Assembly: GCA_964406285.1 (NCBI GenBank) | Contig: CAYORA010000004.1 | Coordinates: forward strand, 1-36,736 | Length of the DNA: 36,736 nt | Direction of reading: 5' to 3' | DNA from: an uncultured Gammaproteobacteria bacterium | GTDB taxonomy: Bacteria; Patescibacteriota; Microgenomatia; Levybacterales; UBA12049 | In this document: positions 11,670 through 36,316 of the stretch, in pieces | Position numbering within the stretch: the first letter of the stretch is position 1 | Layout of the letters: each line of letters starts with the position of its first letter | Made by a program: the position numbers and the translations under genes | Notes under the pieces: model-generated | The model's database searches: none | Seen by the model: only the letters and a program-made list of their open reading frames with translations | Told to the model about the DNA's origin: nothing

Positions 11670-11678
11670 TATTGACTA

Positions 11679-20430: not shown

Positions 20431-20662
20431 AAATATATTTTTACTTACAGGGGTTTTTTATGTCTTATTTCTTTTAGTTTTTTTATATTCATTTAGATAC
20501 TTAAGAACTTTTTTTCCACCTGCGGAAATTTCGGATTATAAGATAATTGGCTATTCACATTATTATGGGTATCCGTTTTATTTTGATACGCTAGCATTCT
20601 TTATTATTGTCACCTTCCCTAGTCTAATATTTATTTTTTTATGGAGATTAAGAAAAAAATAA
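20420..20662 (+). CDS. small two-TM membrane protein, possibly the N-terminal part of the following gene
   Basis: 80-aa ORF with two hydrophobic helices. It overlaps rfbD by 11 nt and ends in A AAA AAA TAA, inside the start of the next ORF. Confidence 0.45.
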   Translation: MKYKNIFLLTGVFYVLFLLVFLYSFRYLRTFFPPAEISDYKIIGYSHYYGYPFYFDTLAFFIIVTFPSLIFIFLWRLRKK

Positions 20663-22614
20663 TTAGGAAAAATTATAAAGAAATTGGAATAATTTTAATA
20701 TTAAATCTTCTTGCAATTACGGTTAATGTTATTTCCCATTGTTCAGGTTATTTAAAATTTGCAAACTTTGATTATCAAGCATTTTTAGCTTGGAACTATG
20801 CTGCATTTACAGATTTAGTTCCCTATAGAGATTTGTATTATCCCTATGGACTTCTTTCCTACTATAAAGATAGTAATATTTTCTTTTTATTGCTTTATAT
20901 CTTCTTATCATTAATAACCATAAATTTACTGATTTTCACACTTATCCAAATATTTAGAAATAAATTTATAGCTTATTTTACGATAATTATGTTTTTCGCA
21001 TTCACTATTTTAATTTCAAATTTCAGTACTTTAAATAGATATGGAATTTCCACAGTATTTGCTTTAACTATATCCTACATATTTTACAAAGGAGTTAATA
21101 GTCGAAAATTTTATTTTGTTTCTGGCTTAATGCTCTCATCTATTTTTTGGTTAGTACACGATCAGGGAATTTTTGGATTAATAATTTTTGTCTTTTTTTA
21201 TTTATTTAGAAAGGTTAGTGAATACAAAAATAAAGAAAAGACAAATCTTTTAAAATCAGTACTAAATGACTCATTATATTTTTTAACAGGTTTTTTGGTG
21301 GGTCTTATTCCATTTATTATTTATCTAACAAAAAACAGCGCATTAACAGATTTCTGGTATTTTTTAACAGTAAGCCTCCCGGAATTTCCCGTTATGTCAA
21401 AGACTCCATTCTTTAATTTGTTTTTTTCGGTAAATAATATTTTTACTGTTGGAGTTTTATCTCTATCAATTCTTTTTTTAGTTTATAAATTATTAAATAA
21501 AGAAAAGATTGCGCTCTTTACCTACACGGAGATTTCATTAACGTTAACCTTACTCCTTTTAGAACAAAAGAACATTGTCAGATTAATGGAGCATGCAATT
21601 ACTTTTGTTGCGTTTATTCTTTTTGCAATTATATTATGGGAAGTTTTAAAGTTAAAAATAATAACTGAAAAAACAAAGAAAAAAATTTACCTAATGACGT
21701 TATTTTTAATTTTGATATTTTTTTACTTTCCATATGGAAATCGTTCAGGGATCAACTCCGCTTCAGATTTAAAAATTAAACCATTAAATTGCTACGCATC
21801 TAATATTAATAAAGCAAAAAACCTCGATGAATATCAAAGAGTTGTTGAAGGTTTAAGCAAATATAAAAACTTTAATAATAAAATATTTAGTTTTCCAGGG
21901 GATCCAATTTTCTATATTCTTTTAAATCAAAAACTTCCTTTTTACCCTAGTGTTTATGAAGCATCTTCTGAAAAGTCACAGTTCCAGGTAATTAAATATT
22001 TGAAAAACGAGGATATTAAATATGTCGTAATTAACAGTGAGAATAAGTCAATTCAAGACGAAGTGCCAAATTATATTAGGGCTACTTATGAATTGAGATA
22101 CATTCTTAATAATTATGTCTTTAGGGATAAGATCGGCAAATTTTTAATACTAGAAAAGAAAGAAAATACTGATTTTTTTACAAAGCTAAATGATCCTTTA
22201 GTTGCTGAGTATCAAAAATTTCTTCTTAATATAAATTTGGAATCGGTCCCTTATTCAGAAGGTTTACATAAGAATAAAATTATTACAGATAAAAAGAATA
22301 AATTTTTAACGGAAGATTTAAGTCAAGCAAAGACAAACGAATATCTTAAAAATAATAAAACTAATTCGAGCAATCTTTTCCTACTTATTAAAAATAAAAG
22401 CTCTAATGATTATTATTCGTTAAAATTTAGGACAGTTGATGGTTTTGAGACAAATGTAAAAATGAAATCGTGCAAAGAAAACTACTGTATAGTTAACTTA
22501 TCAAGGTTACCTTTATTTTATAAAATGCGAGAAATTCAAAGCATCAGATCAAAAGACGAAATTTTAGTAAGCATTTTAATGCCATCAAATGATAATATTA
22601 CGAAGCTATGGTAA
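20641..22614 (+). CDS. polytopic membrane protein with large C-terminal extracytoplasmic domain (GT-C-like or polymerase-like, family unknown)
   Basis: About 12 hydrophobic segments in the first ~370 aa. The first loop is aromatic/acidic: FDYQAFLAWNYAAFTDLVPYRDLYYPYG. About 280 hydrophilic residues follow. I recognise no specific family. Confidence 0.55.
   Translation: MEIKKKIIRKNYKEIGIILILNLLAITVNVISHCSGYLKFANFDYQAFLAWNYAAFTDLVPYRDLYYPYGLLSYYKDSNIFFLLLYIFLSLITINLLIFTLIQIFRNKFIAYFTIIMFFAFTILISNFSTLNRYGISTVFALTISYIFYKGVNSRKFYFVSGLMLSSIFWLVHDQGIFGLIIFVFFYLFRKVSEYKNKEKTNLLKSVLNDSLYFLTGFLVGLIPFIIYLTKNSALTDFWYFLTVSLPEFPVMSKTPFFNLFFSVNNIFTVGVLSLSILFLVYKLLNKEKIALFTYTEISLTLTLLLLEQKNIVRLMEHAITFVAFILFAIILWEVLKLKIITEKTKKKIYLMTLFLILIFFYFPYGNRSGINSASDLKIKPLNCYASNINKAKNLDEYQRVVEGLSKYKNFNNKIFSFPGDPIFYILLNQKLPFYPSVYEASSEKSQFQVIKYLKNEDIKYVVINSENKSIQDEVPNYIRATYELRYILNNYVFRDKIGKFLILEKKENTDFFTKLNDPLVAEYQKFLLNINLESVPYSEGLHKNKIITDKKNKFLTEDLSQAKTNEYLKNNKTNSSNLFLLIKNKSSNDYYSLKFRTVDGFETNVKMKSCKENYCIVNLSRLPLFYKMREIQSIRSKDEILVSILMPSNDNITKLW
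20653..20662 (+). other. A AAA AAA heptamer in X XXY YYZ register immediately followed by TAA (candidate -1 frameshift or homopolymer-error site)
   Basis: ORF 20420 reads aga aaa aaa taa. The -1 frame is exactly the frame of ORF 20641 (aaa aaa ata att). Confidence 0.35.
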
Positions 22615-23345
22615 AGGCAAAAAATATTTGTTTAGTAATTCCTGCTTATAATGAGTCAAAGAACATTCCGTTGGTTGTTAAAGGAATTAGGAAAGAATTT
22701 CCAAATTCCAGAATTATTGTCGTTGATGATTCACTTGAGCCTGAAAGTAACAAAACTAGAGGTGCATTAAAAGGATTTAGGAATCTTGACGTTATTTCAA
22801 GGAAGAAAAAACTTGGGAGAGGGAGTGCAGTGTTAGAAGGTTTTAAATACGGATTAAAATATAAAAACGCTAAATATTTCTATGAAATAGATGCTGATTT
22901 TTCACATGACACAACACACCTGATTAGATTTATGAAGAAAATGAATGAAGAAAAAGTAGGGATGGTTATTGGTTCGCGATATACGAAAGGAGGAAAATCT
23001 TTAAATGTGACTTTGAAGAGAAAATTACTTAGCAAGATGATAAATAAATTTCTATTCGTAATGCTCGATGTAAGATTGTCTGATTACACATCTGGATACA
23101 GACTATATGAAAGAAAAGCAGTTGAATATTTAGCAAAAGCGAAAATGAAATCTTCAGGGTTTATAACGCTTTCAGAAATAACATACAAGTTAAATAAAAA
23201 AGGTTTTAAAATAGGTGAGGTTCCTGTTACTATTTCTACAAGAAAATACGGTAAATCAACAATGGGTCTTCATGAGTTGACTACATCTCTTTTGTTTATT
23301 CTAAAAATGAAAATTGAAGAAGAGTATTTGACTAAATTAAAATAA
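22608..23345 (+). CDS. DPM1-like polyprenyl-phosphate glycosyltransferase (GT2)
   Basis: LVIPAYNESKNI, IIVVDDS, EIDADFSHDTTHL, GSRYTKGG, DYTSGYRLYE, TRKYGKSTM. Overlaps the upstream membrane-protein gene by 7 nt. Confidence 0.88.
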   Translation: MVKAKNICLVIPAYNESKNIPLVVKGIRKEFPNSRIIVVDDSLEPESNKTRGALKGFRNLDVISRKKKLGRGSAVLEGFKYGLKYKNAKYFYEIDADFSHDTTHLIRFMKKMNEEKVGMVIGSRYTKGGKSLNVTLKRKLLSKMINKFLFVMLDVRLSDYTSGYRLYERKAVEYLAKAKMKSSGFITLSEITYKLNKKGFKIGEVPVTISTRKYGKSTMGLHELTTSLLFILKMKIEEEYLTKLK

Positions 23346-23347: not shown

Positions 23348-24586
23348 TCAAACTATTTGAGGGGTCGGGATTGCTAAAATAAATTTTCCTCCATTTTTTC
23401 GAAAAGTGTGTTCTCTTTGAAGTATTGCGTGACTATAGTTCCATACTAATAATAAATAATAATCTGGTCTTTTTTTCTCTGTACCGGTAACTGGTATATG
23501 GGTACCGGGAGTGTAGAGGCCAAATTTATATTCAGTTCTGTCTAAAATATAATCCAGATAATTTGTGTTTATACCGCAGTAATTAAGCAGCGTATTTGAT
23601 TTCGCAGAAGCACCATATCCAGCAATAGAGTACCCTTCTTTTTTTAAATTTTCTAGAATATTCACAAGCTTATTTTTAATGTAATTCACACGGCTCGGCA
23701 TTCCTTTATAGGTGTTTAGTTCTTGAAGTCCAATTTCTTTTTCATTTCTTAGCATTTGGTTAACACTTTTTTTCACTTTTCTGTTATTTGATGAATGAGT
23801 AATATAAAATCTTATCGATCCTCCTTGCGTGTCGTGTTCCTCCACATCAATAATTTTAAGTCCAATTTTTTTTACTAACATATTTAATGGAGAAAGAGAA
23901 AAGAAGGAGCGATGTTCATGATAAACATTGTCAAATTGATTATTAAATAATAAAAACGGAAAATACTGACATTCAATTACTGCAATACCATTTTTTGAGA
24001 GCATTATTTTTATTCCATTTATAAAATCCTTAGGATCTGTTACGTGAGCTATAACATTATTTGCGATTATTATCCCAGCTTTTCCTTTTTCTTCAGAAAT
24101 TTTTTTTGCTGTGCTGCTATTAAAAAAATATGGGAGAGTTTCTATCTTTTGGCTATTTGCATAATCAACTACGTTTTTAGCGGGATCAATTCCTAGAATT
24201 TTACATCCTGCTTTTTGAAAATGTTTAAGTAATGTACCATCATTGCTTGCAACTTCTAAAGTGAAATTTTTCGCTTCTTTTGGAAATCTTTCGAGAACGT
24301 CCATTGCATATTTTTTGAAATATGGAATTGACGATGGGGAGCCACCTGTATAAAAAGCATAATTATTTCCAAATAAGAGTTCATCATTTACATCATGTTT
24401 TAGTTGAACTAAAAAGCACGATTTACAAACTACTACTATTAATGGGAATTTTTTTTCTTTTACATCGGGAGATTTTATAAATAAATCTGCAAGTGGCATT
24501 TTGCCTAAATCTAAAACCTGAAGGAGCCTTTTACTTCCACAAATCCTACACTCATTTCTTTCCTTTACAAGTTTATTAAGTTTCAT
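23348..24586 (-). CDS. NDP-hexose C-methyltransferase (TylCIII/TcaB9-like), paralog 2
   Basis: Zn ribbon CRICGSKRLLQVLDLGKMPLADLF...VCKSCFLVQL, SAM motif LEVASNDGTLL, FDNVYHEHRSFFS, and C-terminal IAGYGASAKSNTLLNY...DYYLLLVWNY. Confidence 0.85.
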   Translation of the reverse strand: MKLNKLVKERNECRICGSKRLLQVLDLGKMPLADLFIKSPDVKEKKFPLIVVVCKSCFLVQLKHDVNDELLFGNNYAFYTGGSPSSIPYFKKYAMDVLERFPKEAKNFTLEVASNDGTLLKHFQKAGCKILGIDPAKNVVDYANSQKIETLPYFFNSSTAKKISEEKGKAGIIIANNVIAHVTDPKDFINGIKIMLSKNGIAVIECQYFPFLLFNNQFDNVYHEHRSFFSLSPLNMLVKKIGLKIIDVEEHDTQGGSIRFYITHSSNNRKVKKSVNQMLRNEKEIGLQELNTYKGMPSRVNYIKNKLVNILENLKKEGYSIAGYGASAKSNTLLNYCGINTNYLDYILDRTEYKFGLYTPGTHIPVTGTEKKRPDYYLLLVWNYSHAILQREHTFRKNGGKFILAIPTPQIV

Positions 24587-25606: not shown

Positions 25607-26572
25607 ATGAAAAAAAAGGAAAAAGTATTAGTAACTGGCGGAGGAGGATTTATTGGTCATCATCTGGCAAGATTTTTAAAAAAAAACGGCTACTATGTGC
25701 GTGCCGCAGATATTGTTTATCCACAATTTTCTGATCTCTCAGATTTTGATGATTTTAGGATTTTAGATTTAAGAGATTTCAGGAATGCAATTGAAGCGAC
25801 TGAAGGAATCACTCATGTATACGCACTTGCAGCGCAAAATGGGAGCATTGAGTACACGATTACAAATAAAGCAGATTTACTTAGAGATAATGCATTAATT
25901 AACCTGAATACCGCAGAAGCATCAATTAGAAATGGCGTTAAGCGATTGTTTTTTTCATCTTCAGCATGTGTTTATCCGGAGAATAAGCAAACAGAAGTAG
26001 ACTCGACACCACTTAAAGAAAACGACGTATATCCTGCAAATCCTGACAGCGAATATGGTTGGGAAAAATTATTTTCTGAAAGAATGTATAAATCTTACGA
26101 GGTGGATCATGGTCTTGAGGTAAGAATAGCAAGATTTTTTAATATTTATGGAGCTGAGTGCCTAATTGATACACTAAGATCGAAAGCTCCAATGGCTCTA
26201 ACTCGAAAAGTGATCGAGGCAGGAAATGGTGGAACAGTTAAGATTTGGGGGGATGGTAAGCAGGTCAGGTCATTCTGCTATATAGATGATTGCGTAGAGG
26301 CAATATATAAACTAATGCACTCTAACATTAAAGACCCCGTTAATATTGGAACTGCTGATCATGTTAGTATAAATGAGTTGGTTGACATTATTTGTAAGAT
26401 TGAAGGGATAAAAGTTAAGAAGGTTCATCAATTGAATAAGATTCAAGGGGTAAGAGGAAGGCTCTGTGATTTTTCTAAAGCACAAAAGGAACTAAGGTGG
26501 AAAGCAAAAGTAACCCCGGTTGAGGGAATGACTGTTATTAATAAATTTGTACATAAACAGCTCGGAAAATAA
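25607..26572 (+). CDS. NDP-sugar epimerase of the extended SDR family, GDP-mannose 3,5-epimerase-like
   Basis: VLVTGGGGFIGHHL, SSSACVYPENKQ, YPANPDSEYGWEKLFSERMYKSY (YxxxK), RIARFFNIYG, KIWGDGKQVRSFCYIDDCVEA, and IQGVRGR. This string of motifs closely follows plant/bacterial GME as I recall it. Confidence 0.7.
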   Translation: MKKKEKVLVTGGGGFIGHHLARFLKKNGYYVRAADIVYPQFSDLSDFDDFRILDLRDFRNAIEATEGITHVYALAAQNGSIEYTITNKADLLRDNALINLNTAEASIRNGVKRLFFSSSACVYPENKQTEVDSTPLKENDVYPANPDSEYGWEKLFSERMYKSYEVDHGLEVRIARFFNIYGAECLIDTLRSKAPMALTRKVIEAGNGGTVKIWGDGKQVRSFCYIDDCVEAIYKLMHSNIKDPVNIGTADHVSINELVDIICKIEGIKVKKVHQLNKIQGVRGRLCDFSKAQKELRWKAKVTPVEGMTVINKFVHKQLGK

Positions 26573-26593: not shown

Positions 26594-29134
26594 ATGAAGA
26601 CAACTTTAATCACAACTGTTTTTAACGAAGAAAAAAATATTGAAAAATTTTTTAAGTCACTTTTTGCCCAAACAAAGCTTCCAGATGAGGTAATTATTGT
26701 AGATGGGGGGAGTAGAGATAAAACTGTTGAAAAACTAAACGAAGTTATAAAAAAGAAAAAAAATAAGTCCCAAGTAAAAATTCTACAAAAAAAAGGAAAT
26801 AGATCTAAGGGAAGGAACTTTGCAATCGAAAATTCCTCTAACGAAATAATTTTAGCTACAGACTTTGGCTGTGTTCTTGATAAGAATTGGGTTAAGTTTG
26901 TTTCAGCGCCTTTTAAGGATAAACAAATTGATGTCGTGTCTGGTTATTATAAGCCATTTGCAGATTCTATTTTCAAAAAGTGTCTAGCGACATATACATG
27001 TGTTATGCCGGATAAAATTAAAGAAAATAATTTTCTTCCATCTTCGCGTTCCATTGCTTTTAGGAAAAAAGTTTGGCAAAGAATTAAATATCCAGAATGG
27101 TTAGATACTTGTGAGGATTTGGTATTCGCAAAAAAACTTAAGGAAAAAAAATATAATTTTGAATTTGTTCGCGAAGCGGTTGTTTTTTGGGAACAGAAAA
27201 ATAATTTTAAAGAAGCTTTTTTTCAATTCTTAAATTATGCAAAAGGGGATGGTAGGGCATTCTACATCAGGCCTCAAGTTCCGTTAATTTATCTCAGATA
27301 TTTTCTAGGAATTTATTTTTTATTTCTCAGTTTTCTTGAAAGATCGGTAACTGGATTATTAATGATTCCGGTGTTTATGTTTATGTATTTTTTGTGGAGT
27401 ATAAAGAAAAACTATAAATACATAAAAAAAAGAAAAGCTTTCTTGATTCTTCCCGCATTGCAAATTCTTTCTGATTTTGCTGTTTTAATCGGGACTACTT
27501 TTGGGCTATTAAAAAGAGTAAATCTAAAAAGAATATTCTCAATTATTAAAAATAATAAATTCATAGTTTTTATAAATTTTATTTATTTAATTCTAATGCT
27601 TCTAACCATAGATTATGGAATTCCAAATAAATTTCACCCATTCCCATATCATATGGATGAGTGGCATCAGCTCCAAGCGGTTAGATCTACTTTTGCATAT
27701 GGAACTCCAAACGTAGAAGGGTCAGCTAATGGAACTATGCTTCATTTCTTGATTTCTGGATTTTATTTAATTCCTTTTACATTGCTTGGCATAATAAATC
27801 CATTTGAGCTGAAAATTGATAATTTTATAAACCGTGAGAATATATTTCTTATATTAAGATTTAACACTATTATATGGGGAATTTTATCGATAACGTTAAT
27901 TTATAAAATAGCTGAAAGTTTAAAGATTTCTAAAAGACTAACAGCAGTTCTTTTTACATTTAATCCTATATGGTTAATGTTGAGTGGTCATTTTAAATAC
28001 GATATTTCACTGATGTTTTTTATATTGCTAAGTATATTTTTTATGTTGAGATATTCTAAAAATCCAACAATCACTAACTTCATAGCTGCAGGTGTTGCGG
28101 TCGGTTTAGCGCTGGCAGTAAAAATAAGTGTTTTACCCTTAATTCCGATTTATTTTTTATCCTTCTTAATATTTCATGAAAATAAAATAAAAAATACAAA
28201 AGTTTTGTTTGTAGGTTTTCTAGCTCTTGTAGCAACAGCCCTTCTGTTTGGTTTTCCTGATACGTTATTTGGTACAGGAAATATTTATAGATATTTATAT
28301 GAGAATTTAATTATATTTCCTTCAGCATCCAGTAATTTCAGATCTGATGGAAATGCTCTTTTATATGTTTTCTTAAAACACTACTCGATAATTTTTGGAT
28401 ATGGATTATTTACTCTTTTTATCTTTTCATTGCCGATTTTGGTTTTAAATATCTTAAAAGGTGGCGGGAGATATATTATTAAGAATAAAACTGAAGCTTT
28501 TTTTATCGCTTCTTTTCTATTGTTTTTATCAAGTCTTGTTACTCTTAAAGCGTATAGTGGAGGAAATAGGGCATTGGTTTTGTTGCCTTTTATAGCTATT
28601 TTAGTTTCCTATGTATGGAGTAATCTGTCAAAAAGAAATTATGGCTGGTTTGTAGGTCTTTTTGTATTTGCAATGGTGATAGTTCAAGTCTATTTTTCAT
28701 TAACATGGACGGATATACGAAACACTAAGAGTATTCAAGCTGAATCTTCAGAATGGATTGAGAAATATGTTCCTGATAATTCTTTAATTGGCCTAGAAAA
28801 CATTCCAATCTATCAAAATATTCCGGACATTTTACAAAAAGAATTCTATTTTCATGAGTATAATGTGGGCTCTAAGAATCGATATGAGTATCAGATTGTT
28901 GATAGTGATAGCTCTAAGTTCCCAAAAGTAATCGTTATAACTAATAGCGATGTCGAAAGAGAAATTTTATATAAATCCCAGAAAACAGAGCTTATTGATA
29001 GGTTGAAGAAGGAAGGATATAGGGAAGTTAAGGTCTTTAAACAAAATACAGAAAAATTATATCTTTCAGATAAAGACTATGTTGTTGCTGGATTAATTTC
29101 CTCTCCTCTAACTATAGCCATTTATAAACGCTAA
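26594..29134 (+). CDS. fusion protein: N-terminal GT2 domain plus TM linker plus C-terminal GT-C (ArnT/PMT-like) domain
   Basis: aa 1-225: LITTVFNEEKNI, VIIVDGGSRDKT, and ATDFGC (GT2). aa ~225-310: hydrophobic hairpins. aa ~310-846: at least 10 TM segments with the first-loop motif PYHMDEWHQLQAVRS, then a C-terminal soluble domain. The ORF is uninterrupted. Confidence 0.75.
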   Translation: MKTTLITTVFNEEKNIEKFFKSLFAQTKLPDEVIIVDGGSRDKTVEKLNEVIKKKKNKSQVKILQKKGNRSKGRNFAIENSSNEIILATDFGCVLDKNWVKFVSAPFKDKQIDVVSGYYKPFADSIFKKCLATYTCVMPDKIKENNFLPSSRSIAFRKKVWQRIKYPEWLDTCEDLVFAKKLKEKKYNFEFVREAVVFWEQKNNFKEAFFQFLNYAKGDGRAFYIRPQVPLIYLRYFLGIYFLFLSFLERSVTGLLMIPVFMFMYFLWSIKKNYKYIKKRKAFLILPALQILSDFAVLIGTTFGLLKRVNLKRIFSIIKNNKFIVFINFIYLILMLLTIDYGIPNKFHPFPYHMDEWHQLQAVRSTFAYGTPNVEGSANGTMLHFLISGFYLIPFTLLGIINPFELKIDNFINRENIFLILRFNTIIWGILSITLIYKIAESLKISKRLTAVLFTFNPIWLMLSGHFKYDISLMFFILLSIFFMLRYSKNPTITNFIAAGVAVGLALAVKISVLPLIPIYFLSFLIFHENKIKNTKVLFVGFLALVATALLFGFPDTLFGTGNIYRYLYENLIIFPSASSNFRSDGNALLYVFLKHYSIIFGYGLFTLFIFSLPILVLNILKGGGRYIIKNKTEAFFIASFLLFLSSLVTLKAYSGGNRALVLLPFIAILVSYVWSNLSKRNYGWFVGLFVFAMVIVQVYFSLTWTDIRNTKSIQAESSEWIEKYVPDNSLIGLENIPIYQNIPDILQKEFYFHEYNVGSKNRYEYQIVDSDSSKFPKVIVITNSDVEREILYKSQKTELIDRLKKEGYREVKVFKQNTEKLYLSDKDYVVAGLISSPLTIAIYKR

Positions 29135-29154: not shown

Positions 29155-30378
29155 ATGAGCTATTTAAAAACGACAATTGTAGGAGTTTCGTGGATAGGTG
29201 CTCTTAAATTTTTTTCCAGAGGATCTTCGATAATTAGAACTTTAGTAATAGCAAGAATTCTTTCTCCCTCACAGTTCGGTGTGTTTGGAATTGCAACCTT
29301 GATACTATCACTGGTTGAGACTTTAACGGAAACTGGTATAAATGTAGTTCTCATTCAAAAAAAAGAAAAAATCGAAGATTATATTAATACGGCCTGGATA
29401 ATCTCCATTCTTAGAGGTGCACTCATATTTTTAGTAATATTAATTTCTGCAGGATTCGTTTCAACTTTTTTTAAATCTGAGGAGTCAAGAAATCTACTAA
29501 TCCTAATATCTTTTGTTCCGCTGGTTAGGGGATTTATAAATCCAGCAGTAGCGAAATTTCAAAAAGAACTAAATTTTAAAAAAGAATTTTTCTATAGAAT
29601 AAGCATCGTAGCCGTAGAAACAGTTGTTTCAATTGTTTTAGTACTTTTAACAAGAGATCCAGTCTCACTAGTTTGGGCTTTAATTGGTGGAGCAGCTTTT
29701 GAAGTAATTATCTCATTTTTAATTGTTAAACCAAGACCACAATTAAACTTTGATAGAAATATTTTTAAAGACATTTTTTCCCACAGTAAATGGATTACAT
29801 CATCAGGTATTTTTAGTTACTTATTTGCAAATGGAGATAATATAGTGGTTGGTCGCACTCTTGGAACGTCATCTTTGGGAATCTATGATATGGCTTATAC
29901 AATCGCTCTTTTACCCACAACTGAACTTGCTGAAGTGGTTGCTAAGGTAACCTTTCCTGTATATGTGCAGTTTTCAGAGGATAAAAAAAGATTAAAGAAA
30001 GCATACCTAAAAACAACGCTAATAATTGCTGTTTTAACACTTCCATTGGTTTTAATATTTATATTTTTTCCTAGGGAGATTATCCAAATATTTTTAGGAG
30101 AAAAATGGATTGAGGCAGCTAAGATATTACAAATAATGTCTATTTTTGCTTTCATCTCTGCAGTATTTAGTCCAAGCGGTGCAATTTTTTATTCTGTAAA
30201 AAAACAAAAATATACTTTCATAGTAAGCTTTGTAGCATTTATTGTTATGATTAGTTTAATAAGTCCTTTTATAAATGTATATGGGCTTGCAGGAGCTGCA
30301 ATGGCTGCTACGATTGGGGTAATTTCTCCTGTACCTCTGGTTATTTATTTTCTATACAAAATATTTCGTAGTAAATAA
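29155..30378 (+). CDS. Wzx-type oligosaccharide flippase (MOP superfamily, polysaccharide biosynthesis protein)
   Basis: About 12 TM segments. The N-terminus GVSWIGALKFFSRGSSIIRTLVIARILSPSQFGVFGIA...ETGINVVLIQ is typical of the Polysacc_synt/Wzx family. Confidence 0.8.
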   Translation: MSYLKTTIVGVSWIGALKFFSRGSSIIRTLVIARILSPSQFGVFGIATLILSLVETLTETGINVVLIQKKEKIEDYINTAWIISILRGALIFLVILISAGFVSTFFKSEESRNLLILISFVPLVRGFINPAVAKFQKELNFKKEFFYRISIVAVETVVSIVLVLLTRDPVSLVWALIGGAAFEVIISFLIVKPRPQLNFDRNIFKDIFSHSKWITSSGIFSYLFANGDNIVVGRTLGTSSLGIYDMAYTIALLPTTELAEVVAKVTFPVYVQFSEDKKRLKKAYLKTTLIIAVLTLPLVLIFIFFPREIIQIFLGEKWIEAAKILQIMSIFAFISAVFSPSGAIFYSVKKQKYTFIVSFVAFIVMISLISPFINVYGLAGAAMAATIGVISPVPLVIYFLYKIFRSK

Positions 30379-30437
30379 AATATTAACTTTACAAAAGTTT
30401 TTCTAGTTGTTATCATGCCTAAGTTTTGAAACGTAAT

Positions 30438-31340
30438 ATGATCTATGACTGTTTCCCATTTTATAACGAGCTTGAAGTTTTAGATATTAGACTTCATGAA
30501 TTAGATAGCGTTGTAGATAAGTTTGTATTAGTTGAAAGTACTGTAACTCATACAAATAAACCAAAGCCGCTTTACTACAAAAACAATAAAGATAAGTTTA
30601 AAAAATTTAATAAAAAGATAATACATATTATTGTCGACGATGCTCCCGATATCGACATGACATGGGTTTTGGAAAGGTACTTTTTTACAGCAGTTGAACG
30701 CGGTTTAAAAAATGCAAAGCCCAACGATATAATTTTATATTCTTCTGCAGATGAAATACCCAAGGCAGAGAAAGTTGTTGAATGGATGAATAAACCAGGA
30801 TCAATCAAGGCATTTGATGAAAAATCATGTTATTACTTTCTAAACTTTATAGATGTAAAAAATGATAACAAAACTCCAATCACTGTAACTAGAATGTTTA
30901 GGTATAAGGAAGTTAAAAAGTTAAAGGATATTTATTATGCATATAGGGTAAAACCAGATGTAATAATTCCAGATGGAGGATGGCACTTTTCTTATATTGG
31001 TGGAGTGAAAAGGATTCAAGATAAAATTGCTTCTTTCGCACATCAAGAATTTAATAATGATAAATTTAATACTCCTGAAAGAATCAAAAAATCTATGCTG
31101 CTCGGAAAAGATCCTTTCGGTTATGGTCGAAAATTTAAAATAGTAAGTCCTGAGACTCTCCCGAAATATGTAATTGAAAATCAAGATAAATTTAAAGATT
31201 TAATACTTACAAAAAAGAATTTAAATGCGAATATTATAAGAATGCAAATTTTTTATTTAGATTTAAAACATTATTTAAGGATTTTAATTCTCAGAAGATT
31301 ACGCAAAAGCTTTGTTTCTACCAGATCTAAATTATCTTAA
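30438..31340 (+). CDS. glycosyltransferase family 17-like (GnT-III-like)
   Basis: MIYDCFPFYNELEVLDIRLHELDSVVDKFVLVES..TH..KPKPLYY, SSADEIP, and DGGWHFSYIGG...IASFAHQEF match the GT17 pattern. ATG 30438 is preferred; the track start TTG 30426 remains possible. Confidence 0.8.
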   Translation: MIYDCFPFYNELEVLDIRLHELDSVVDKFVLVESTVTHTNKPKPLYYKNNKDKFKKFNKKIIHIIVDDAPDIDMTWVLERYFFTAVERGLKNAKPNDIILYSSADEIPKAEKVVEWMNKPGSIKAFDEKSCYYFLNFIDVKNDNKTPITVTRMFRYKEVKKLKDIYYAYRVKPDVIIPDGGWHFSYIGGVKRIQDKIASFAHQEFNNDKFNTPERIKKSMLLGKDPFGYGRKFKIVSPETLPKYVIENQDKFKDLILTKKNLNANIIRMQIFYLDLKHYLRILILRRLRKSFVSTRSKLS

Positions 31341-32912
31341 GATTCTCTTTTGAACGGTAAATCCTTCAATTCCACTTGACAATTGTTTTGTATTTATTAT
31401 TCGGCCAAAATTGTTAAACTTAAGCATTCTTTGAGAGTAGCCTGAGGATATGGATTTATTGGGGATGATTATGTAATATGTCCCAGATTTTAGATTTCTG
31501 AATTGATCTTTTTCATTTATAAACACAGGAACTCCACCACCAGATGTATAAGCTCTGTCTTGATTAATTGGATAATGGGTACTACTTAAAAATTGAAAAA
31601 TATATTTATAATCTATTACTTTTTCTCCTCCTGTTAAATAAATTATGTTAAACGGTGTATTGTTTGAATCTTTATAAACATACTCTATAGGAGTTTTGAT
31701 CCGAATTTCATTTTTTAAATTTTTATATTCTTTATAAGTTTGTATTTGCTTATTTAAATTATCAATAAAAGAGTTAAAAGAAATTAAAATAATTAATATT
31801 ACGAAGAATTGCGCAAAAATATTTTTTTTAAAAAGATATGAAAGTAAAATAGCAGAAAAAAATATGTAGGTAATCGTGAGATACGTAATCCACCAGAATG
31901 ATGCACGCTCAACTGGAATAATTGTTATTAAAATAAATGTAAAAGGAATTATTAAGAGAAGATAGGAAATAAAGATTTTACTAAATATTTTTATTTTTTT
32001 ATCTTTAATATAAAAATAGAATCCGATTAGTAGAATTAAAAAAATAAAAACTAATAGTTTATAATCGAAAATTGGGAAAACTGTCGATAGATCTGTTTTA
32101 AAAAGATGTAGTCTATCAGCCAAAACTAAAATGTACGGAAATCTTTCTTCGCCAGTGCTTTTAAATAAAACACTAATTAACCCTTTTAAATTGTAAAAAT
32201 TATTAGTTAGGTCATATATAAGATGTGGGATGAATGAGATAGAAAATATTAACACTGATTTTAAAAATGTAGTTTTGTTTATGATTCTCTTATAAAGAAA
32301 ATAAATAAAAAGAGTAATAAAGCTGGGTAGTAGAAGTCCTAATGAGGCAATTTCAAATTGAGAAATTAACGAAAGAGAGAATACGGAAATATATAGGTAT
32401 TTATTTTCTTTTCTAGGAAAAAATAAATAGAGAAAACATAAATGAAAAACCATTAAAAGTGGAACGATAAAAGGTGGCCATGCTAAGTTAACCCATTTTA
32501 TTAGATATGGTGAAGTGCCTAATAGAAAGGCAGCTAAGAAGCCTTCCGTTTTCCCAAAATATTTATAGGCAAAAACTGAAGTAAAAAGAAATATTAAAAA
32601 ACTTATAATTACCATAAATAATTTTCCTCCAACTGGATCCCCGTTAAAAATCATAAAGAAAGGAATAAGTAGGTAGCTCCATAAAGGTCCTTGTGCAAAA
32701 CCACCGATTTCTCCAACTACGTGCCCTAATAGAGGAAAGTGAAAATTATTAACTATGTCGTTTGTCTGAAAATAATAAAATGCAAAATCTCCATTGAAAT
32801 AATCAGATTTAGTAAAAAAAGAAATAAGTCTTGGAATCGAAAATATAGTTAGGAAAATAATGAAATAGAAATTACGTTTGATTAATTTAGAAATAGTAAT
32901 TTTTGAACTCAC
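31332..32912 (-). CDS. polytopic GT-C-like glycosyltransferase (ArnT/GT39-like)
   Basis: About 14 hydrophobic segments. First loop: NGDFAFYYFQTNDIVNNFHFPLLGHVVGEIGGFAQGPLWSY, clearly related to the loop of ORF 34096. GTG start with no nearby in-frame ATG. Overlaps the GT17 gene by 9 nt, convergently. Confidence 0.6.
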   Translation of the reverse strand: MSSKITISKLIKRNFYFIIFLTIFSIPRLISFFTKSDYFNGDFAFYYFQTNDIVNNFHFPLLGHVVGEIGGFAQGPLWSYLLIPFFMIFNGDPVGGKLFMVIISFLIFLFTSVFAYKYFGKTEGFLAAFLLGTSPYLIKWVNLAWPPFIVPLLMVFHLCFLYLFFPRKENKYLYISVFSLSLISQFEIASLGLLLPSFITLFIYFLYKRIINKTTFLKSVLIFSISFIPHLIYDLTNNFYNLKGLISVLFKSTGEERFPYILVLADRLHLFKTDLSTVFPIFDYKLLVFIFLILLIGFYFYIKDKKIKIFSKIFISYLLLIIPFTFILITIIPVERASFWWITYLTITYIFFSAILLSYLFKKNIFAQFFVILIILISFNSFIDNLNKQIQTYKEYKNLKNEIRIKTPIEYVYKDSNNTPFNIIYLTGGEKVIDYKYIFQFLSSTHYPINQDRAYTSGGGVPVFINEKDQFRNLKSGTYYIIIPNKSISSGYSQRMLKFNNFGRIINTKQLSSGIEGFTVQKRILR

Positions 32913-33005: not shown

Positions 33006-34103
33006 ATGAGGATAGCAGTTTTTCATGAACTTCCAGAAGGAGGGGCATTAAAAGTAGTTAACGAAATGTCTAAAGGTCTTAAAAATGAACATGTGGTTGA
33101 CCTATATACTACAACAGAAAAATTTAATCATAAAGAATATTACGCAAATACATTTATATATAAATTTAAACCAAAAGTATGGATTGGTGGAAATTTTAAA
33201 ACAAGGATTTATAAAGATTCAATAGAACTTATAAAACTTTTTTTATTGCATAAAAAAATCGCAAAAGATATTAGAGAAAAAAAATACGATATTCTTTTTG
33301 TAAATGGTTCCAAATATATTGAGGCACCATTTATACTTTTATTTAAAAACAAAAATAAAGTTCTTTTTTGTCATAACACAAACTATAGATTTATTTACGA
33401 GCCAATTCTTAACAATACTAATGATTTAGACGTTATTAGAAAATCTTACGAAAAATTAAATAGAACAATTAGAAAATATTTAGACATTATAAATATTAAA
33501 TCTGCAGATAAAATATTAACTGGATCAAAATATGAAAAGCAGATGATTAAAAAAACTTATGGACTTGAAAGTAAAAATATTTCCTATGGAGTTAACTTCG
33601 ATTTTTTCAAACCAAAAAATACAAAGAAAAAATACGACGTTTTGTTTATTGGTACCTCACACTTACTAGAGGGATATCCCACCTTAGAAGAGGTGGAAAA
33701 GCTACTGCCTAAAAGTTTTAAGGTAAAAAAAATCTTAGGAGATATTAAATGGGTAACTGACGTTTATGAATTAAGAGATTTATACCAAAGTTCTAGAATT
33801 ACTTTATGTCTTGGTCATAATGAGCCTTTTGGTTTAACTCCGTTAGATTCTATGAGCTGTGAAGTTCCCGTAATTGCTGTTAATGAAGGGGGTTATAGGG
33901 AAACTGTAATTGACGGAGTTACGGGTTACCTAGTCCCAAGAAATCCAGAGATAATTGCAAAAAAAATTACTTATCTTTTAAAAAATGAAAGAAAGAGAAA
34001 AAGAATGGGAGAAAAGGGAAGGGAAGAAATGATTAGAAATTATAATTGGGATAAAAATATTACTGAGGTTGAAAGGATATTTCGGTTAATGGCAAATGTT
34101 TAA
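33006..34103 (+). CDS. GT-B fold glycosyltransferase (GT4)
   Basis: MRIAVFHELPEGG at the N-terminus. The C-terminal motif EPFGLTPLDSMSCEVPVIAVNEGGYRETVIDGVTGYLV is the GT4 EX7E region. ATG 33006 is preferred over the track TTG at 32985, which lies inside the predicted promoter. Confidence 0.88.
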   Translation: MRIAVFHELPEGGALKVVNEMSKGLKNEHVVDLYTTTEKFNHKEYYANTFIYKFKPKVWIGGNFKTRIYKDSIELIKLFLLHKKIAKDIREKKYDILFVNGSKYIEAPFILLFKNKNKVLFCHNTNYRFIYEPILNNTNDLDVIRKSYEKLNRTIRKYLDIINIKSADKILTGSKYEKQMIKKTYGLESKNISYGVNFDFFKPKNTKKKYDVLFIGTSHLLEGYPTLEEVEKLLPKSFKVKKILGDIKWVTDVYELRDLYQSSRITLCLGHNEPFGLTPLDSMSCEVPVIAVNEGGYRETVIDGVTGYLVPRNPEIIAKKITYLLKNERKRKRMGEKGREEMIRNYNWDKNITEVERIFRLMANV

Positions 34104-35554: not shown

Positions 35555-36316
35555 ATGAGCTATCAAATATCTGCTGTAGTCCTCACAAAGAACGAAGAAA
35601 AAAATATTATTGATTGTCTAGAGGCATTAAAATTTGCTGAAGAAATAATTATAGTTGATGATAATTCGACTGACAGAACAAGAGATCTAATTGAAGTTTT
35701 TGAAAAAACACATCCGAAAGTTAAGCTTTTTAAGAGAAGTCTTGATGGAGATTTTTCTCTTCAAAGGAAATTTGGAGTAGAGAAAACACGAAATGATTGG
35801 GTCATGTTTGTAGATGCTGATGAAAGAATTTCCCAAGAACTTTCAACAGAGATAAAAGAGAGAATTTCTGAAGAGTATTCGGGGTTTTTGATCCCTAGGC
35901 GAGATTTTATGTGGGGAAAGGAGCTTATGCACGGGGAAACAGGAAGAACAAAGTTATTGAGACTTTTTAATAAAAATAAAGGTAGTTTGAAGGGAAAAGT
36001 TCACGAGACATGGGAAACAAAAAGTGAAGTAGGAATATTGATAAATCCAATTAAGCACTATCCGCATCCGACAATTTCAGAGTTTTTAAGAGAAATAAAT
36101 TTCTATACAGATCTTCGTGCGGAGGAGCTTAAAGAAAAAGGAATAAAAGCGAATGCTCTATCGATAATTCTTTATCCTAAAGCAAAATTTGTCACAAATT
36201 ATTTTCTAAAACTTGGAATTTTAGATGGCACTGCGGGTTTAGTCCATGCGATACTTATGAGCTTTCATTCATTTCTTGTCCGAGGAAAGCTTTGGCTTTT
36301 ATGGCAAAAAAGTTAA
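35555..36316 (+). CDS. GT2-family glycosyltransferase (KdtX/WaaE-like)
   Basis: ISAVVLTKNEEKNIIDCLEALKFAEEIIIVDDNSTDRT and FVDADERIS (DxD), plus a C-terminal GILDGTAGLVHAILMSF typical of this GT2 subgroup. Confidence 0.85.
   Translation: MSYQISAVVLTKNEEKNIIDCLEALKFAEEIIIVDDNSTDRTRDLIEVFEKTHPKVKLFKRSLDGDFSLQRKFGVEKTRNDWVMFVDADERISQELSTEIKERISEEYSGFLIPRRDFMWGKELMHGETGRTKLLRLFNKNKGSLKGKVHETWETKSEVGILINPIKHYPHPTISEFLREINFYTDLRAEELKEKGIKANALSIILYPKAKFVTNYFLKLGILDGTAGLVHAILMSFHSFLVRGKLWLLWQKS

What the first reader, a model, noticed from the sequence alone, without database searches (positions are those of the whole stretch)
26594..29134. Single 846-aa polypeptide fusing a GT2 domain to a GT-C domain (a possible make-and-use fusion)
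The ORF is uninterrupted. It runs from a soluble GT2 domain (VIIVDGGSRDKT, ATDFGC), through hydrophobic hairpins like the C-terminal anchors of GtrB/ArnC-type enzymes, into a complete ArnT/PMT-like polytopic domain (HMDEWHQ first loop, at least 10 TM segments, C-terminal soluble domain). If the GT2 part makes a polyprenyl-phosphate sugar, the fusion physically links donor synthesis on the cytoplasmic face to donor use on the outer face. It also acts as a Rosetta-stone argument that the unfused neighbouring pairs (20641+22608, 34096+35555, 10299+11679) are functional partners. I cannot tell from memory whether this exact architecture has been characterised biochemically.
Basis: partly seen in the sequence, partly recalled or inferred. 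Interest (0 to 1): 0.68.

Follow-up and report, generated by a model that had tools for sequence, protein, structure and literature searches.

The report
Fused inner-face and outer-face glycosyltransferase

Summary
ORF 26594..29134 (+) is an uninterrupted 846-aa GT2 + PMT_2 (GT-C) protein. More than 120 sequence clusters of collinear 836-903-aa homologues rule out an assembly artefact.

By profile and fold comparison, the GT2 half is not a GtrB/ArnC/DPMS-type polyprenyl-phosphate glycosyltransferase. It is a small membrane-embedded GT2 of the PgaC / hyaluronan-synthase / PcManGT kind. The same tests do identify window ORF 22608 as a true DPMS/PpgS-type enzyme.

Both halves also occur as separate genes. 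The GT2 half is almost always followed by a Wzx-type MOP flippase (29155..30378 here) and is fused to that flippase in one related locus.

My best reading (about 0.4) is a make-flip-use module: the GT2 half loads a lipid-linked sugar inside, the flippase moves it, and the GT-C half uses it outside. The main rival (about 0.3) is that the GT-C half takes its donor from the DPMS-like enzyme and decorates the flipped product.

A textbook ArnC-like GT2 + PMT fusion sits directly downstream of the orthologous fusion in two sister loci.

Verdict: uncharacterised variant of known multi-component transmembrane glycosylation systems; moderate interest.

The parts
26594..29134 (+). Whole 846-aa fusion ORF (stop codon included)
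26594..27205 (+). GT-A (GT2) catalytic domain, aa 1-204. Invariant D37, D90-x-G92 (a degenerate DXD) and E174-D175 (general-base position, aligned with TarS E177-D178).
   Evidence: PMC12595478 for the role of the base
27206..27256 (+). Interface helix aa 205-221 (FKEAFFQFLNYAKGDGR), aligned with the PgaC QRLRWAQG motif. The aromatic residue and A-x-G are kept; Q, R and W are not.
27278..27424 (+). Transmembrane hairpin aa 229-277 (invariant R235, Y236, K272, N273, Y276), followed by a basic cytoplasmic loop KKRK
27437..27514 (+). Hydrophobic 26-residue helix aa 282-307 with an invariant polar face (Q290, D294, G300, G304). Basic residues flank both ends, so it is inferred to be non-spanning or interfacial. 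Stand-alone N-half proteins end just after it.
27557..28723 (+). GT-C membrane domain aa 322-710 (about 13 helices). PMT_2 match at aa 421-549. Further invariant residues Y469-D470, K510, G553, D556, and L661-P665 (GNRxLVLLPF motif; N658 and R659 conserved in at least 90%).
27650..27670 (+). HMDEWHQ in the first outer loop after GT-C TM1; M354, D355, E356 and W357 are invariant in 45 sequences (PMT-like DE motif)
28733..29131 (+). C-terminal alpha/beta domain aa 714-846, inferred to lie outside the membrane; candidate acceptor-binding domain
   Evidence: secondary structure; location is inferred from topology
29155..30378 (+). MOP (Wzx/TuaB-like) flippase, 20 nt downstream. An orthologue lies downstream of all 16 other fused loci and of most stand-alone N-half genes. 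It is fused to the N-half in L034.
25607..26572 (+). NAD-dependent sugar-nucleotide epimerase/reductase, 21 nt upstream on the same strand. Possible supplier of the GT2 donor. Its adjacency is not conserved in most related loci.
22608..23345 (+). Context: the true polyprenyl-phosphate GT2 of the window (DPMS 1e-15; PpgS 8e-24). It overlaps the end of membrane ORF 20641..22614. It is a possible alternative donor source for the GT-C half.

Best explanation
The protein is two of the three parts of a transmembrane glycosylation module, joined in one chain.

The N-terminal half (aa 1-320) is an inverting GT2 with a minimal cellulose-synthase-like, PcManGT-like membrane anchor. At the cytoplasmic face it transfers a sugar from a nucleotide sugar onto a membrane-embedded carrier. 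That carrier is most likely polyprenyl phosphate or a polyprenyl-(pyro)phosphate-linked sugar. The MOP flippase encoded 20 nt downstream moves the product to the outer leaflet. The C-terminal half (aa 322-846) is a PMT_2/GT39-like GT-C with a DE motif in its first outer loop and an outer alpha/beta domain. It uses the flipped lipid-linked sugar as donor to glycosylate an extracytoplasmic acceptor, either a protein or a cell-wall glycan, which is not identified.

Shown by tool results: the domain identities, the topology logic, the conserved fusion, and the conserved linkage to the flippase. Inferred: the nature of the lipid acceptor, the donor-user relation between the two halves, and the final acceptor.

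Probabilities: that the GT2 product, once flipped, is a substrate of the GT-C half in any role, about 0.6-0.7. That it is specifically the GT-C donor, about 0.4.
For: - The fusion is conserved full-length in more than 120 clusters and 16 species-representative genomes.
- Both halves exist as separate genes in sister lineages. They sit in the same locus in L021, L030 and L047. Fused and split forms interleave in rough NJ trees. This suggests repeated fusion or fission of partners.
- A flippase orthologue (over 200 bits) lies downstream on the same strand in all 16 other fused loci and most Patescibacteria N-half-only loci, often overlapping the N-half stop. In L034 the N-half is fused directly to the flippase.
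- The N-half fold covers PcManGT almost end to end (324 columns, TMq and TMt both 0.55) and hyaluronan synthase (TMq 0.56-0.61), membrane helices included. From my own recollection of the PcManGT paper, which the library does not hold, it was reported as a dolichyl-phosphate-dependent mannosyltransferase.
- The membrane helices carry invariant basic and polar residues: R226, R235, K272, N273, Q290, D294.
- The C-half passes the Pfam PMT_2 cutoff and has an invariant D355-E356. The one GT-C entry in the top 50 fold matches is ALG12 (E 1.2e-8, 577 columns, TMt 0.57). From established knowledge, characterised PMT_2/GT39/GT83 enzymes use polyprenyl-phosphate monosaccharide donors.
- There is precedent for a Wzx-type flippase in such a system: GacI/J-GacK-GacL (PMC8035078).
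- By analogy, sister loci encode an ArnC-like GT2 fused to a PMT-like GT-C (L005, L007), or adjacent to it (L011). In these organisms a GT-C therefore tends to be joined to its own GT2 partner.
- No WecA- or WcaJ-type phosphoglycosyltransferase is found in the window or in any Patescibacteria locus.
Against: - The N-half is not in the clade that holds all well-characterised polyprenyl-phosphate sugar synthases.
- A bona fide DPMS/PpgS-like enzyme is present in the window (22608). Its orthologue lies immediately downstream of the fusion in L005, L007, L008, L010, L011 and L013, and could supply the GT-C donor instead.
- An aromatic residue is retained at the QxxRW-equivalent position, which in synthases stacks on an acceptor sugar. 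This hints at a sugar rather than a bare phosphate acceptor.
- MOP flippases usually carry polyprenyl-diphosphate oligosaccharides. The best NCBIfam matches of this one are a generic MOP flippase family model (PRK10459) and TuaB.
- Many N-half genes have no C-half within 8 kb and are instead linked to Wzy_C-like or other GT-C genes.
- Two Anaerolineae homologues sit next to a WcaJ-type phosphoglycosyltransferase.
Confidence: 0.4

Rival explanations
1. Successive-steps fusion. The GT2 half performs a late or membrane-proximal cytoplasmic step on a lipid-linked glycan (polyprenyl-P- or PP-linked). The MOP flippase flips it. The GT-C half then decorates that same flipped glycan, or its transferred product, using a polyprenyl-phosphate sugar made by the separate DPMS/PpgS-like enzyme (22608 here). 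The GT2 product is the GT-C acceptor, not its donor. This is an assembly line like the one that builds eukaryotic lipid-linked oligosaccharides.
For: - DPMS-like orthologues (150 bits or more) are present in 8 of 16 fused loci plus the window, against 0 of 64 other loci. They lie immediately downstream of the fusion in six loci.
- The N-half resembles sugar-acceptor GT2s (TarS/TarP, PgaC, hyaluronan synthase) more than phosphate-acceptor ones.
- The flippase is TuaB/Wzx-like.
- The window holds GT4, GT2 and GT17 enzymes plus five or six GT-C-like proteins but only one clear DPMS-like enzyme.
- ALG12 is the only GT-C among the top 50 fold matches.
- A WcaJ-type phosphoglycosyltransferase lies next to two Anaerolineae homologues.
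Against: - The DPMS-like enzyme has its own dedicated GT-C, fused in L005/L007 and adjacent in L011.
- The fused loci all come from one lineage, so the co-occurrence statistic is not phylogenetically independent.
- No phosphoglycosyltransferase is seen in the Patescibacteria loci.
- Glycan-extending GT2s normally lack membrane helices, whereas this one has a conserved intramembrane polar face.
Confidence: 0.3
2. The GT2 half is a glycolipid synthase (GT21-like, acting on diacylglycerol or another membrane lipid) or a small processive synthase. The two halves share a membrane location or regulation, not a substrate chain.
For: - PF13506 (Glyco_transf_21) and PF13632 matches occur in many family members.
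- PgaC is the best NCBIfam and hhalign relative.
- Hyaluronan synthase is the top fold match.
Against: - There are only two spanning helices plus interface helices, so there is no channel-sized membrane domain.
- The Q, R and W of QxxRW are not conserved.
- The tight, repeated linkage and fusion with a MOP flippase and with GT-C proteins is hard to explain without a shared lipid-linked intermediate.
Confidence: 0.15
3. One reading: the GT2 half is a member of the GtrB/ArnC/DPMS family making a polyprenyl-phosphate monosaccharide.
For: - The topology is the same: a GT-A domain, interface helices and a two-span hairpin.
- There are weak matches to GtrB (5e-4) and ArnC (1e-3) over the nucleotide-binding part.
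Against: - The same tests cleanly identify ORF 22608 and the L007 760-aa protein as that family.
- They place this GT2 elsewhere: PgaC matches over 221 columns against 125 for ArnC and 87 for GtrB, probability 17.7 against 22608, and no GtrB, DPMS or ArnC in the top 50 fold matches.
Confidence: 0.1
4. Assembly or gene-calling artefact: two genes wrongly joined.
For: None found. Raw reads were not available.
Against: - More than 120 collinear full-length clusters come from independent sources and assemblies.
- There are invariant residues across the junction.
- The single-chain model is confident, pTM 0.87.
Confidence: 0.01

Closest known systems
Multi-component transmembrane glycosylation systems (GtrA/GtrB/Gtr-type; CsbB/GtcA/YfhO; GacI-GacJ/GacK/GacL)
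   Same: A cytoplasm-facing GT-A enzyme, a flippase and an outward-facing GT-C enzyme are encoded together. The GacK precedent shows a Wzx-type flippase in such a system (PMC8035078).
   Different: Here the GT-A and GT-C parts are one polypeptide. The GT-A part is not of the GtrB/CsbB/GacI (DPMS-like) lineage. The flippase is MOP-type rather than GtrA-type.
PcManGT (Pyrobaculum calidifontis, PDB 6YV7), the 'minimal cellulose-synthase-like' membrane GT2
   Same: It gives the best near-full-length fold match to the N-half (324 columns, TMq and TMt 0.55). Both have a GT-A domain, interface helices and a few membrane helices. The general-base Asp is conserved (PMC12595478).
   Different: Sequence identity is only about 16%. 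PcManGT is a stand-alone archaeal enzyme. Its dolichyl-phosphate dependence is recalled from the original paper, which could not be read here.
PgaC/IcaA, hyaluronan synthase and cellulose synthase (processive membrane GT2s)
   Same: These are the best profile relatives: PgaC probability 98.4 over 221 columns, including the ED and QxxRW-equivalent region. They are also the top fold hits.
   Different: The protein has no N-terminal membrane helices and only two spans, so no channel. QxxRW is degenerate. DXD reads D-x-G.
PMT / ArnT-type GT-C enzymes (Pfam PMT_2, CAZy GT39/GT83)
   Same: PMT_2 matches above the cutoff. The DE motif sits in the first outer loop. There are about 13 membrane helices and a C-terminal outer domain.
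   Different: No solved GT-C is detectable by sequence, even with a profile. The only GT-C among the top 50 fold matches is ALG12, not ArnT or PMT. Donor and acceptor are unknown.
ArnC/DPMS-like GT2 + PMT fusion proteins of Levybacteria (L005/L007, 760 aa; about 750-aa family)
   Same: They have the same overall GT2 + GT-C architecture, come from the same organisms, and are encoded directly downstream of the orthologous fusion.
   Different: Their GT2 is a true polyprenyl-phosphate type (ArnC 1e-7 over the whole catalytic domain). Their GT-C is a different PMT-like family.
Haloferax volcanii AglD / AglR / AglS (from my own knowledge, not tested here)
   Same: A GT2 charges dolichyl phosphate with mannose, a Wzx-like MOP protein is needed for flipping, and an outward-facing membrane transferase uses it.
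   Different: These are separate archaeal proteins. No homology test was run here beyond weak NCBIfam hits to Agl23, AglG and AglJ models.

Membership tests
GT2 (GT-A fold, inverting) | Pfam Glycos_transf_2 above the gathering score; Rossmann-like alpha/beta domain | tested here: met
   68.6 bits against a cutoff of 23.3. The model shows a GT-A domain, and fold matches to many GT2 structures have E about 1e-13.
GT2 (GT-A fold, inverting) | DXD metal/diphosphate-binding motif | tested here: inconclusive
   The motif reads D90-x-G92, with G conserved in at least 90% of sequences. It aligns with the PgaC D-G-D; D96 is nearly invariant nearby.
GT2 (GT-A fold, inverting) | General-base Asp/Glu after the DXD region | tested here: met
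   E174-D175 are invariant and align with TarS E177-D178 and the PgaC ED. The role of this residue is described in PMC12595478.
GtrB/ArnC/DPMS polyprenyl-phosphate glycosyltransferases | Closest sequence and profile relatives are DPMS, GtrB or ArnC over the whole catalytic domain | tested here: not met
   A profile search against the PDB gives TarS 3e-14, GtrB 5e-4, ArnC 1e-3, and DPMS is not listed. hhalign gives ArnC 125 columns, GtrB 87 columns, PgaC 221 columns, and probability 17.7 against ORF 22608. As a positive control, ORF 22608 matches DPMS at 1e-15 over aa 6-220.
GtrB/ArnC/DPMS polyprenyl-phosphate glycosyltransferases | Fold neighbours are GtrB (5EKP), DPMS (5MLZ) or ArnC | tested here: not met
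   None of them is in the 50 matches shown for the N-half model. Hyaluronan synthase, PcManGT and TarP lead. Lower ranks were not visible.
GtrB/ArnC/DPMS polyprenyl-phosphate glycosyltransferases | Interface helices plus a C-terminal transmembrane hairpin with the C-terminus in the cytoplasm | tested here: met
   The model shows helices 205-221, 229-248 and 252-277. The positive-inside pattern fits. Fusion to GT-C TM1 and, in L034, to a MOP flippase N-terminus requires a cytoplasmic end.
GtrB/ArnC/DPMS polyprenyl-phosphate glycosyltransferases | Transfers a sugar to polyprenyl phosphate | not testable with these tools
   Needs a biochemical assay.
Processive cellulose-synthase-like GT2 synthases | QxxRW motif in an interface helix | tested here: not met
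   The aligned segment is FQFLNYAKG (family consensus MFFRFAxG). Only the aromatic residue and A-x-G are kept.
Processive cellulose-synthase-like GT2 synthases | Membrane channel of six or more helices | tested here: not met
   The N-half module has only two spanning helices plus one interfacial hydrophobic helix. Stand-alone forms are 307-381 aa.
GT-C (PMT_2 / GT39-GT83-like) | Pfam PMT_2 above the gathering score | tested here: met
   47.4 bits against a cutoff of 26.1. PF13231, with or without PF02366, is precomputed for most homologues.
GT-C (PMT_2 / GT39-GT83-like) | Conserved acidic motif in the first extracytoplasmic loop after TM1 | tested here: met
   D355-E356 are invariant in 45 sequences, 16 residues after helix 322-337.
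GT-C (PMT_2 / GT39-GT83-like) | Polytopic fold similar to solved GT-C structures | tested here: met
   The match to ALG12 (9s6t) has E 1.2e-8, 577 columns and TMt 0.57. This is superfamily level only. A ranking among GT-C classes was not obtainable, and there are no sequence-level hits to solved GT-Cs.
GT-C (PMT_2 / GT39-GT83-like) | Uses a polyprenyl-phosphate-linked sugar donor at the outer face | not testable with these tools
   Inferred from family membership only.
Three-component transmembrane glycosylation system | A GT-A, a flippase and a GT-C encoded together | tested here: met
   In the window the order is fusion, then MOP flippase 20 nt downstream. A flippase orthologue lies downstream in 16 of 16 other fused loci.

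The most novel reading that the evidence does not exclude
The GT2 half is a polyprenyl-phosphate sugar synthase of a lineage separate from DPMS/GtrB/ArnC, namely the minimal cellulose-synthase-like, PcManGT-like lineage. It is covalently joined to the GT-C that consumes its product. Together with the co-transcribed MOP flippase (itself fused to the GT2 in L034), the protein would then be a self-contained machine that makes, flips and spends a lipid-linked sugar. MOP flippases would thereby be shown to serve monophosphate-linked monosaccharide carriers in Patescibacteria.
Probability: 0.3. Interest if true: 0.7.

Novelty: new variant of a known kind. Interest (0 to 1): 0.5.

Why it matters
Which cytoplasmic enzyme feeds which outward-facing GT-C enzyme, and which flippase connects them, is usually guessed from gene order alone. 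These Patescibacteria loci provide a network of natural fusions that link the three roles physically:
- this GT2 with a GT-C;
- the same GT2 with a MOP flippase;
- an ArnC-like GT2 with a PMT-like GT-C;
- a GT2 with GtrA or with YfhO.

If the GT2 half does charge a polyprenyl phosphate, it would be a second evolutionary solution to that reaction. It would also be a compact single-chain model for structural work on trans-bilayer glycosylation.

Patescibacteria have small genomes and depend on their surface for attachment to hosts. A large, conserved investment in envelope glycosylation is therefore biologically relevant. If instead the protein only joins two successive steps, it is an ordinary uncharacterised member of a known pathway type.

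Tried and rejected
- **Solved structures for the GT-C half.** A sequence search found no hits with a single sequence or with a 45-sequence profile at E up to 1. Classification therefore rests on Pfam and one fold hit.
- **Literature.** Searches for GT2/GT-C fusions, GtrB + GT-C + fused, Patescibacteria + GT-C, and PMT_2 + Glycos_transf_2 found no paper describing this architecture. Two reviews or papers on three-component systems do not mention fusions.
- **Rosetta-stone transfer to ORF 20641.** hhalign of the family against 20641 found nothing. ORFs 20641 and 15922 have no Pfam or NCBIfam match, although a 15922 homologue hits PF10131.
- **Epimerase adjacency as a clue to the sugar.** The upstream epimerase is not conserved next to the fusion (4 of 16 loci, weak hits). 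NCBIfam gives only sub-threshold matches to Fcl and GalE.
- **Wzy_C replacement idea.** Wzy_C-like genes occur in 13 N-half-only loci and in none of the 17 fused loci. The sample is not phylogenetically independent and the flanks are limited to 8 kb, so I treat this as a hint only.
- **ED motif as a discriminator.** I dropped this because the general-base Asp is reported as conserved across inverting GT-A families (PMC12595478).
- **Phosphoglycosyltransferase search.** E. coli WecA and WcaJ queries found hits only in two Anaerolineae loci. E. coli queries may miss very divergent enzymes.


Full report
**1. The observation**

ORF 26594..29134 (+) is an uninterrupted 846-aa reading frame that starts with ATG. 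Pfam finds Glycos_transf_2 at aa 5-117 (8e-19) and PMT_2 at aa 421-549 (3.2e-12). Both are above their gathering scores.

A search of 5.8 billion proteins returned 383 relatives. The best 120 clusters are 836-903 aa and 42-100% identical; 119 cover 100% of the query and one 97%. Almost all carry PF00535 + PF13231, and many also carry PF02366, PF13506 or PF13632. The few source names read only 'glycosyltransferase' and point to Candidatus Levybacteria / Patescibacteria. An 846-aa member of the same 90% cluster lies on an independent 181.8-kb contig.

A scan of species-representative genomes found 16 further full-length collinear copies. The 45-sequence alignment has invariant residues on both sides of the junction and within it. 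GC content is even across the junction. The fusion is therefore real. Only read coverage remains unchecked.

**2. Anatomy**

The AlphaFold2 model built on the 45-sequence alignment is confident: pLDDT 90.1, pTM 0.87. It shows these parts in order:
- a GT-A domain (aa 1-204);
- an interface helix (205-221);
- a tight helical hairpin (229-248 and 252-277);
- a 26-residue hydrophobic helix (282-307) with an invariant polar face (Q290, D294, G300, G304);
- a short basic amphipathic helix (311-320);
- about 13 membrane helices (322-710);
- an alpha/beta domain (714-846).

Basic residues cluster at 270-281 and 307-321. Helix 322-337 is followed, 16 residues later, by the invariant M-D-E-W (D355-E356). 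This is the position of the PMT-type DE motif in the first outer loop. Residue ~321 must therefore be cytoplasmic, and the GT2 module has an even number of spans: two, with helix 282-307 inferred to be interfacial or re-entrant.

Independent support comes from locus L034. There the same GT2 module is fused at the same point to a MOP flippase (Polysacc_synt at aa 324-636), and I take such flippases to begin in the cytoplasm.

**3. What kind of GT2 it is**

A family profile searched against all solved structures gives TarS 3e-14, TarP 5.5e-11 and chondroitin synthase 5e-10. GtrB scores only 5e-4 and ArnC 1e-3, over the nucleotide-binding part alone, and DPMS is not listed.

hhalign of the N-half alignment gives:
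- E. coli PgaC: probability 98.4, E 4.8e-15, 221 columns, running through the invariant E174-D175 and the helix equivalent to QRLRWAQG;
- E. coli ArnC: probability 96.8, 125 columns;
- E. coli GtrB homologue YfdH: probability 96.2, 87 columns;
- the window's own ORF 22608: probability 17.7.

A separate model of aa 1-345 (pLDDT 91.0) was searched against the PDB. It matches Chlorella virus hyaluronan synthase best (TMq 0.56-0.61), then PcManGT 6YV7 (324 columns, TMq and TMt 0.55), then TarP/TarS (about 0.46). No GtrB, DPMS or ArnC entry is among the 50 matches shown.

The same methods work as a positive control. ORF 22608 (245 aa) hits only DPMS (1e-15 over aa 6-220), ArnC and GtrB in the PDB. 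In NCBIfam it hits PpgS (7.6e-24) and AglJ.

The GT2 half is thus a small membrane-embedded GT2 of the cellulose-synthase-like / GT21-like group. It is not a channel-forming synthase, for three reasons. It has only two spans. The QxxRW equivalent is degenerate (FQFLNYAKG here, consensus MFFRFAxG). The DXD motif reads D90-x-G92.

The invariant D175 aligns with the TarS general base D178. That residue is reported as conserved in all inverting GT-A families (PMC12595478), so it does not reveal the acceptor.

**4. The GT-C half**

Several features place it in the GT-C superfamily near GT39/GT83:
- PMT_2 above the cutoff;
- the DE motif;
- further invariant residues Y469-D470, K510, D556 and L661-P665 of the GNRxLVLLPF motif, whose N658 and R659 are conserved in at least 90%;
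- about 13 helices plus an outer C-terminal domain;
- a fold match to ALG12, E 1.2e-8, 577 columns, TMt 0.57.

No solved GT-C is detectable by sequence. The donor and acceptor cannot be read from the sequence.

**5. Context and related loci**

The window is a large glycosylation cluster from a low-GC (31%) Patescibacteria genome. Its genes are listed below.

| Role | Window ORFs |
|---|---|
| PMT_2-type GT-C proteins | 10299, 31332(-), 34096 |
| Family-less polytopic proteins | 15922(-), 20641 |
| GT2 | 11679, 13511(-), 22608, 24685, 35555 |
| GT4 | 12506, 32985 |
| GT17 | 30426 |
| rmlC, rmlD | 19043, 19552 |
| Sugar C-methyltransferases | 17682(-), 23348(-) |
| Epimerase | 25607 |
| MOP flippase | 29155 |

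No phosphoglycosyltransferase was found.

The fusion lies in a same-strand run: epimerase, a 21-nt gap, the fusion, a 20-nt gap, the flippase, a 47-nt gap, then the GT17 gene.

Among 80 related loci, both halves also exist as separate genes.
- The GT2 module is a widespread stand-alone protein of about 310-330 aa in Levy-, Woese- and Gottesmanbacteria, Saccharimonadales and Anaerolineae.
- The GT-C module is a stand-alone protein of about 540-550 aa in L018, L021, L030, L035 and L043. It is shorter in L057 and carries an N-terminal extension (667 aa) in L047.
- Both halves sit unfused in the same locus in L021, L030 and L047.

Rough NJ trees interleave fused and split forms. This suggests repeated fusion or fission.

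The most constant partner of the GT2 module is the MOP flippase. An orthologue lies downstream on the same strand in all 16 other fused loci and in most Patescibacteria N-half-only loci, often overlapping the stop codon. The two are fused in L034.

Other fusions were found:
- a different GT2 with the same GT-C family (L055, 831 aa);
- another GT2 + PMT_2 protein (L030, 742 aa).

Neither of those GT2s is DPMS-like.

**6. The DPMS-like neighbour**

Orthologues of ORF 22608 (150 bits or more) occur in 8 of 16 fused loci and in none of 64 other loci. They lie immediately downstream of the fusion in L005, L007, L008, L010, L011 and L013.

In L005 and L007 that gene encodes a 760-aa protein. It is an ArnC-like GT2 (ArnC 1e-7 over aa 13-235) fused to a PMT/PMT_2 GT-C. 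In L011 the same two parts are adjacent genes. This second fusion family has at least 50 clusters of about 750 aa, which JGI names 'dolichol-phosphate mannosyltransferase'. The same search returned GT2+YfhO, GT2+GtrA, GT2+GtrA+epimerase and PAP2+GT2+PMT_2 proteins.

This cuts both ways. It shows that a conventional donor source for the GT-C half is at hand. It also shows that in these genomes a GT-C tends to be joined to its own GT2 partner.

**7. Mechanism**

I commit to a make-flip-use module. The GT2 half loads a sugar onto a polyprenyl-phosphate(-linked) carrier at the inner face. The adjacent MOP flippase moves it. The GT-C half spends it outside on a protein or wall glycan, which is probably bound by the C-terminal domain.

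My probabilities are about 0.6-0.7 that the flipped GT2 product is a GT-C substrate in any role, and about 0.4 that it is the donor.

The main rival (0.3) is a successive-steps fusion. In that model the GT-C half decorates the flipped product with a sugar supplied by the DPMS-like enzyme. Supporting it are the co-occurrence in section 6, the sugar-acceptor-like relatives of the GT2, the TuaB/Wzx-like flippase, and the WcaJ-type phosphoglycosyltransferase beside two Anaerolineae homologues.

Lesser rivals are a glycolipid or small polymer synthase with no shared substrate (0.15), true GtrB-family membership (0.1), and an artefact (0.01).

A Wzx-type flippase acting on a monophosphate-linked sugar has a proposed precedent in GacK (PMC8035078).

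**8. The neighbouring pairs**

This fusion does not validate them, because its halves are not orthologous to those genes.
- 20641+22608 is plausible on its own evidence. ORF 22608 is PpgS/DPMS-like, and the pair recurs in L012.
- 34096+35555 recurs adjacent or overlapping in 11 loci, but 35555 resembles GmaR and SunS, not DPMS.
- 11679 resembles chondroitin synthase and ppGalNAcT.

**9. Novelty and score**

No paper in the searchable library describes this architecture. It is a conserved, uncharacterised variant of known multi-component transmembrane glycosylation systems. Two components are fused, the GT2 is of an unexpected lineage, and the flippase is MOP-type. Interest is 0.5. The most novel reading that survives is a non-DPMS polyprenyl-phosphate sugar synthase fused to its consumer, with probability about 0.3 and interest 0.7 if true.

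Noticed in passing
L005:2600-4879 and L007:10555-12834 (immediately downstream of the orthologous fusion); L011:9905-10663 plus 10707-12266: A 760-aa ArnC/DPMS-type GT2 fused to a PMT/PMT_2 GT-C, which is the textbook make-and-use fusion. In L011 the two parts are adjacent genes. The family has at least 50 clusters of about 750 aa in Levybacteria/Patescibacteria; JGI names it 'dolichol-phosphate mannosyltransferase'.
   Followed up: partly
L034:7995-10160: The same GT2 + hairpin module is fused directly to a MOP (Polysacc_synt) flippase in a 722-aa protein. This is a second Rosetta-stone link and fixes the cytoplasmic C-terminus of the module.
   Followed up: partly
window 22608-23345 and 20641-22614: ORF 22608 is the only clear polyprenyl-phosphate GT2 in the window (DPMS 1e-15; PpgS 7.6e-24). 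It overlaps the end of a 657-aa ORF (20641) that has no Pfam or NCBIfam match. The pair recurs in L012. It may be an Rv3631/Rv3779-like pair.
   Followed up: partly
window 34096-35550 and 35555-36316; 11 related loci, for example L003:14602-17609 and L040:11410-13586: A GT-C (PMT_2) gene is followed by an adjacent or overlapping 250-aa GT2 whose best solved relatives are GmaR and SunS (protein/peptide glycosyltransferases), not DPMS. The pairing is highly conserved but its logic is unexplained.
   Followed up: partly
L024, L026, L034, L037, L039, L041, L045, L050, L051, L056, L059, L068, L080: Wzy_C (O-antigen ligase/polymerase-like) genes occur in 13 loci where the GT2 module is stand-alone, and in none of the 17 loci with the fusion. 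The GT-C half may replace that role, or this may reflect lineage alone.
   Followed up: partly
window 26861-26869 (aa 90-92): The DXD motif of this GT2 family is D-x-G, with the glycine nearly invariant. It aligns with D-G-D of PgaC. This may point to unusual metal or diphosphate handling.
   Followed up: no
window 30426-31340: An ORF matches Pfam Glyco_transf_17 (1.6e-29), the family of the animal bisecting GlcNAc transferase. It lies right after the flippase and convergent with a GT-C gene (31332-32912, minus strand). It has no NCBIfam match.
   Followed up: no
window 13511-14935 (-), 17682-18935 (-), 23348-24586 (-), 19043-20430: The cluster holds a GT2 + methyltransferase fusion, two sugar C-methyltransferases (Methyltransf_14) and rmlC/rmlD, but no rmlA/rmlB in the window. 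It probably makes methylated 6-deoxy sugars.
   Followed up: no
P0218, P0222, P0224, P0225: Further natural fusions of DPMS-like GT2s were seen: with YfhO (979 aa), with GtrA (429 aa), with GtrA plus an epimerase (664 aa), and PAP2 + GT2 + PMT_2 in an Endomicrobia protein (922 aa).
   Followed up: no
L003, L005-L007, L014-L016 and many others: Many contigs carrying these Patescibacteria-type loci are titled 'uncultured Gammaproteobacteria bacterium' (TPA_asm MAGs). This is probably a taxonomic mislabel in the records.
   Followed up: no
L060:9941-11281, L061:10147-11670: WcaJ-type phosphoglycosyltransferase genes lie about 1 kb downstream of the stand-alone GT2-module homologues in two Anaerolineae MAGs. 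No such gene was found in any Patescibacteria locus or in the window.
   Followed up: partly
window 15922-17664 (-); L007:4267-6111 (-): A 580-aa protein (about 11 predicted membrane helices in its L019 homologue) with no family match in the window is conserved upstream on the opposite strand in 11 of 16 fused loci and 12 other loci. Its L007 homologue hits PF10131 (PTPS_related membrane protein).
   Followed up: no
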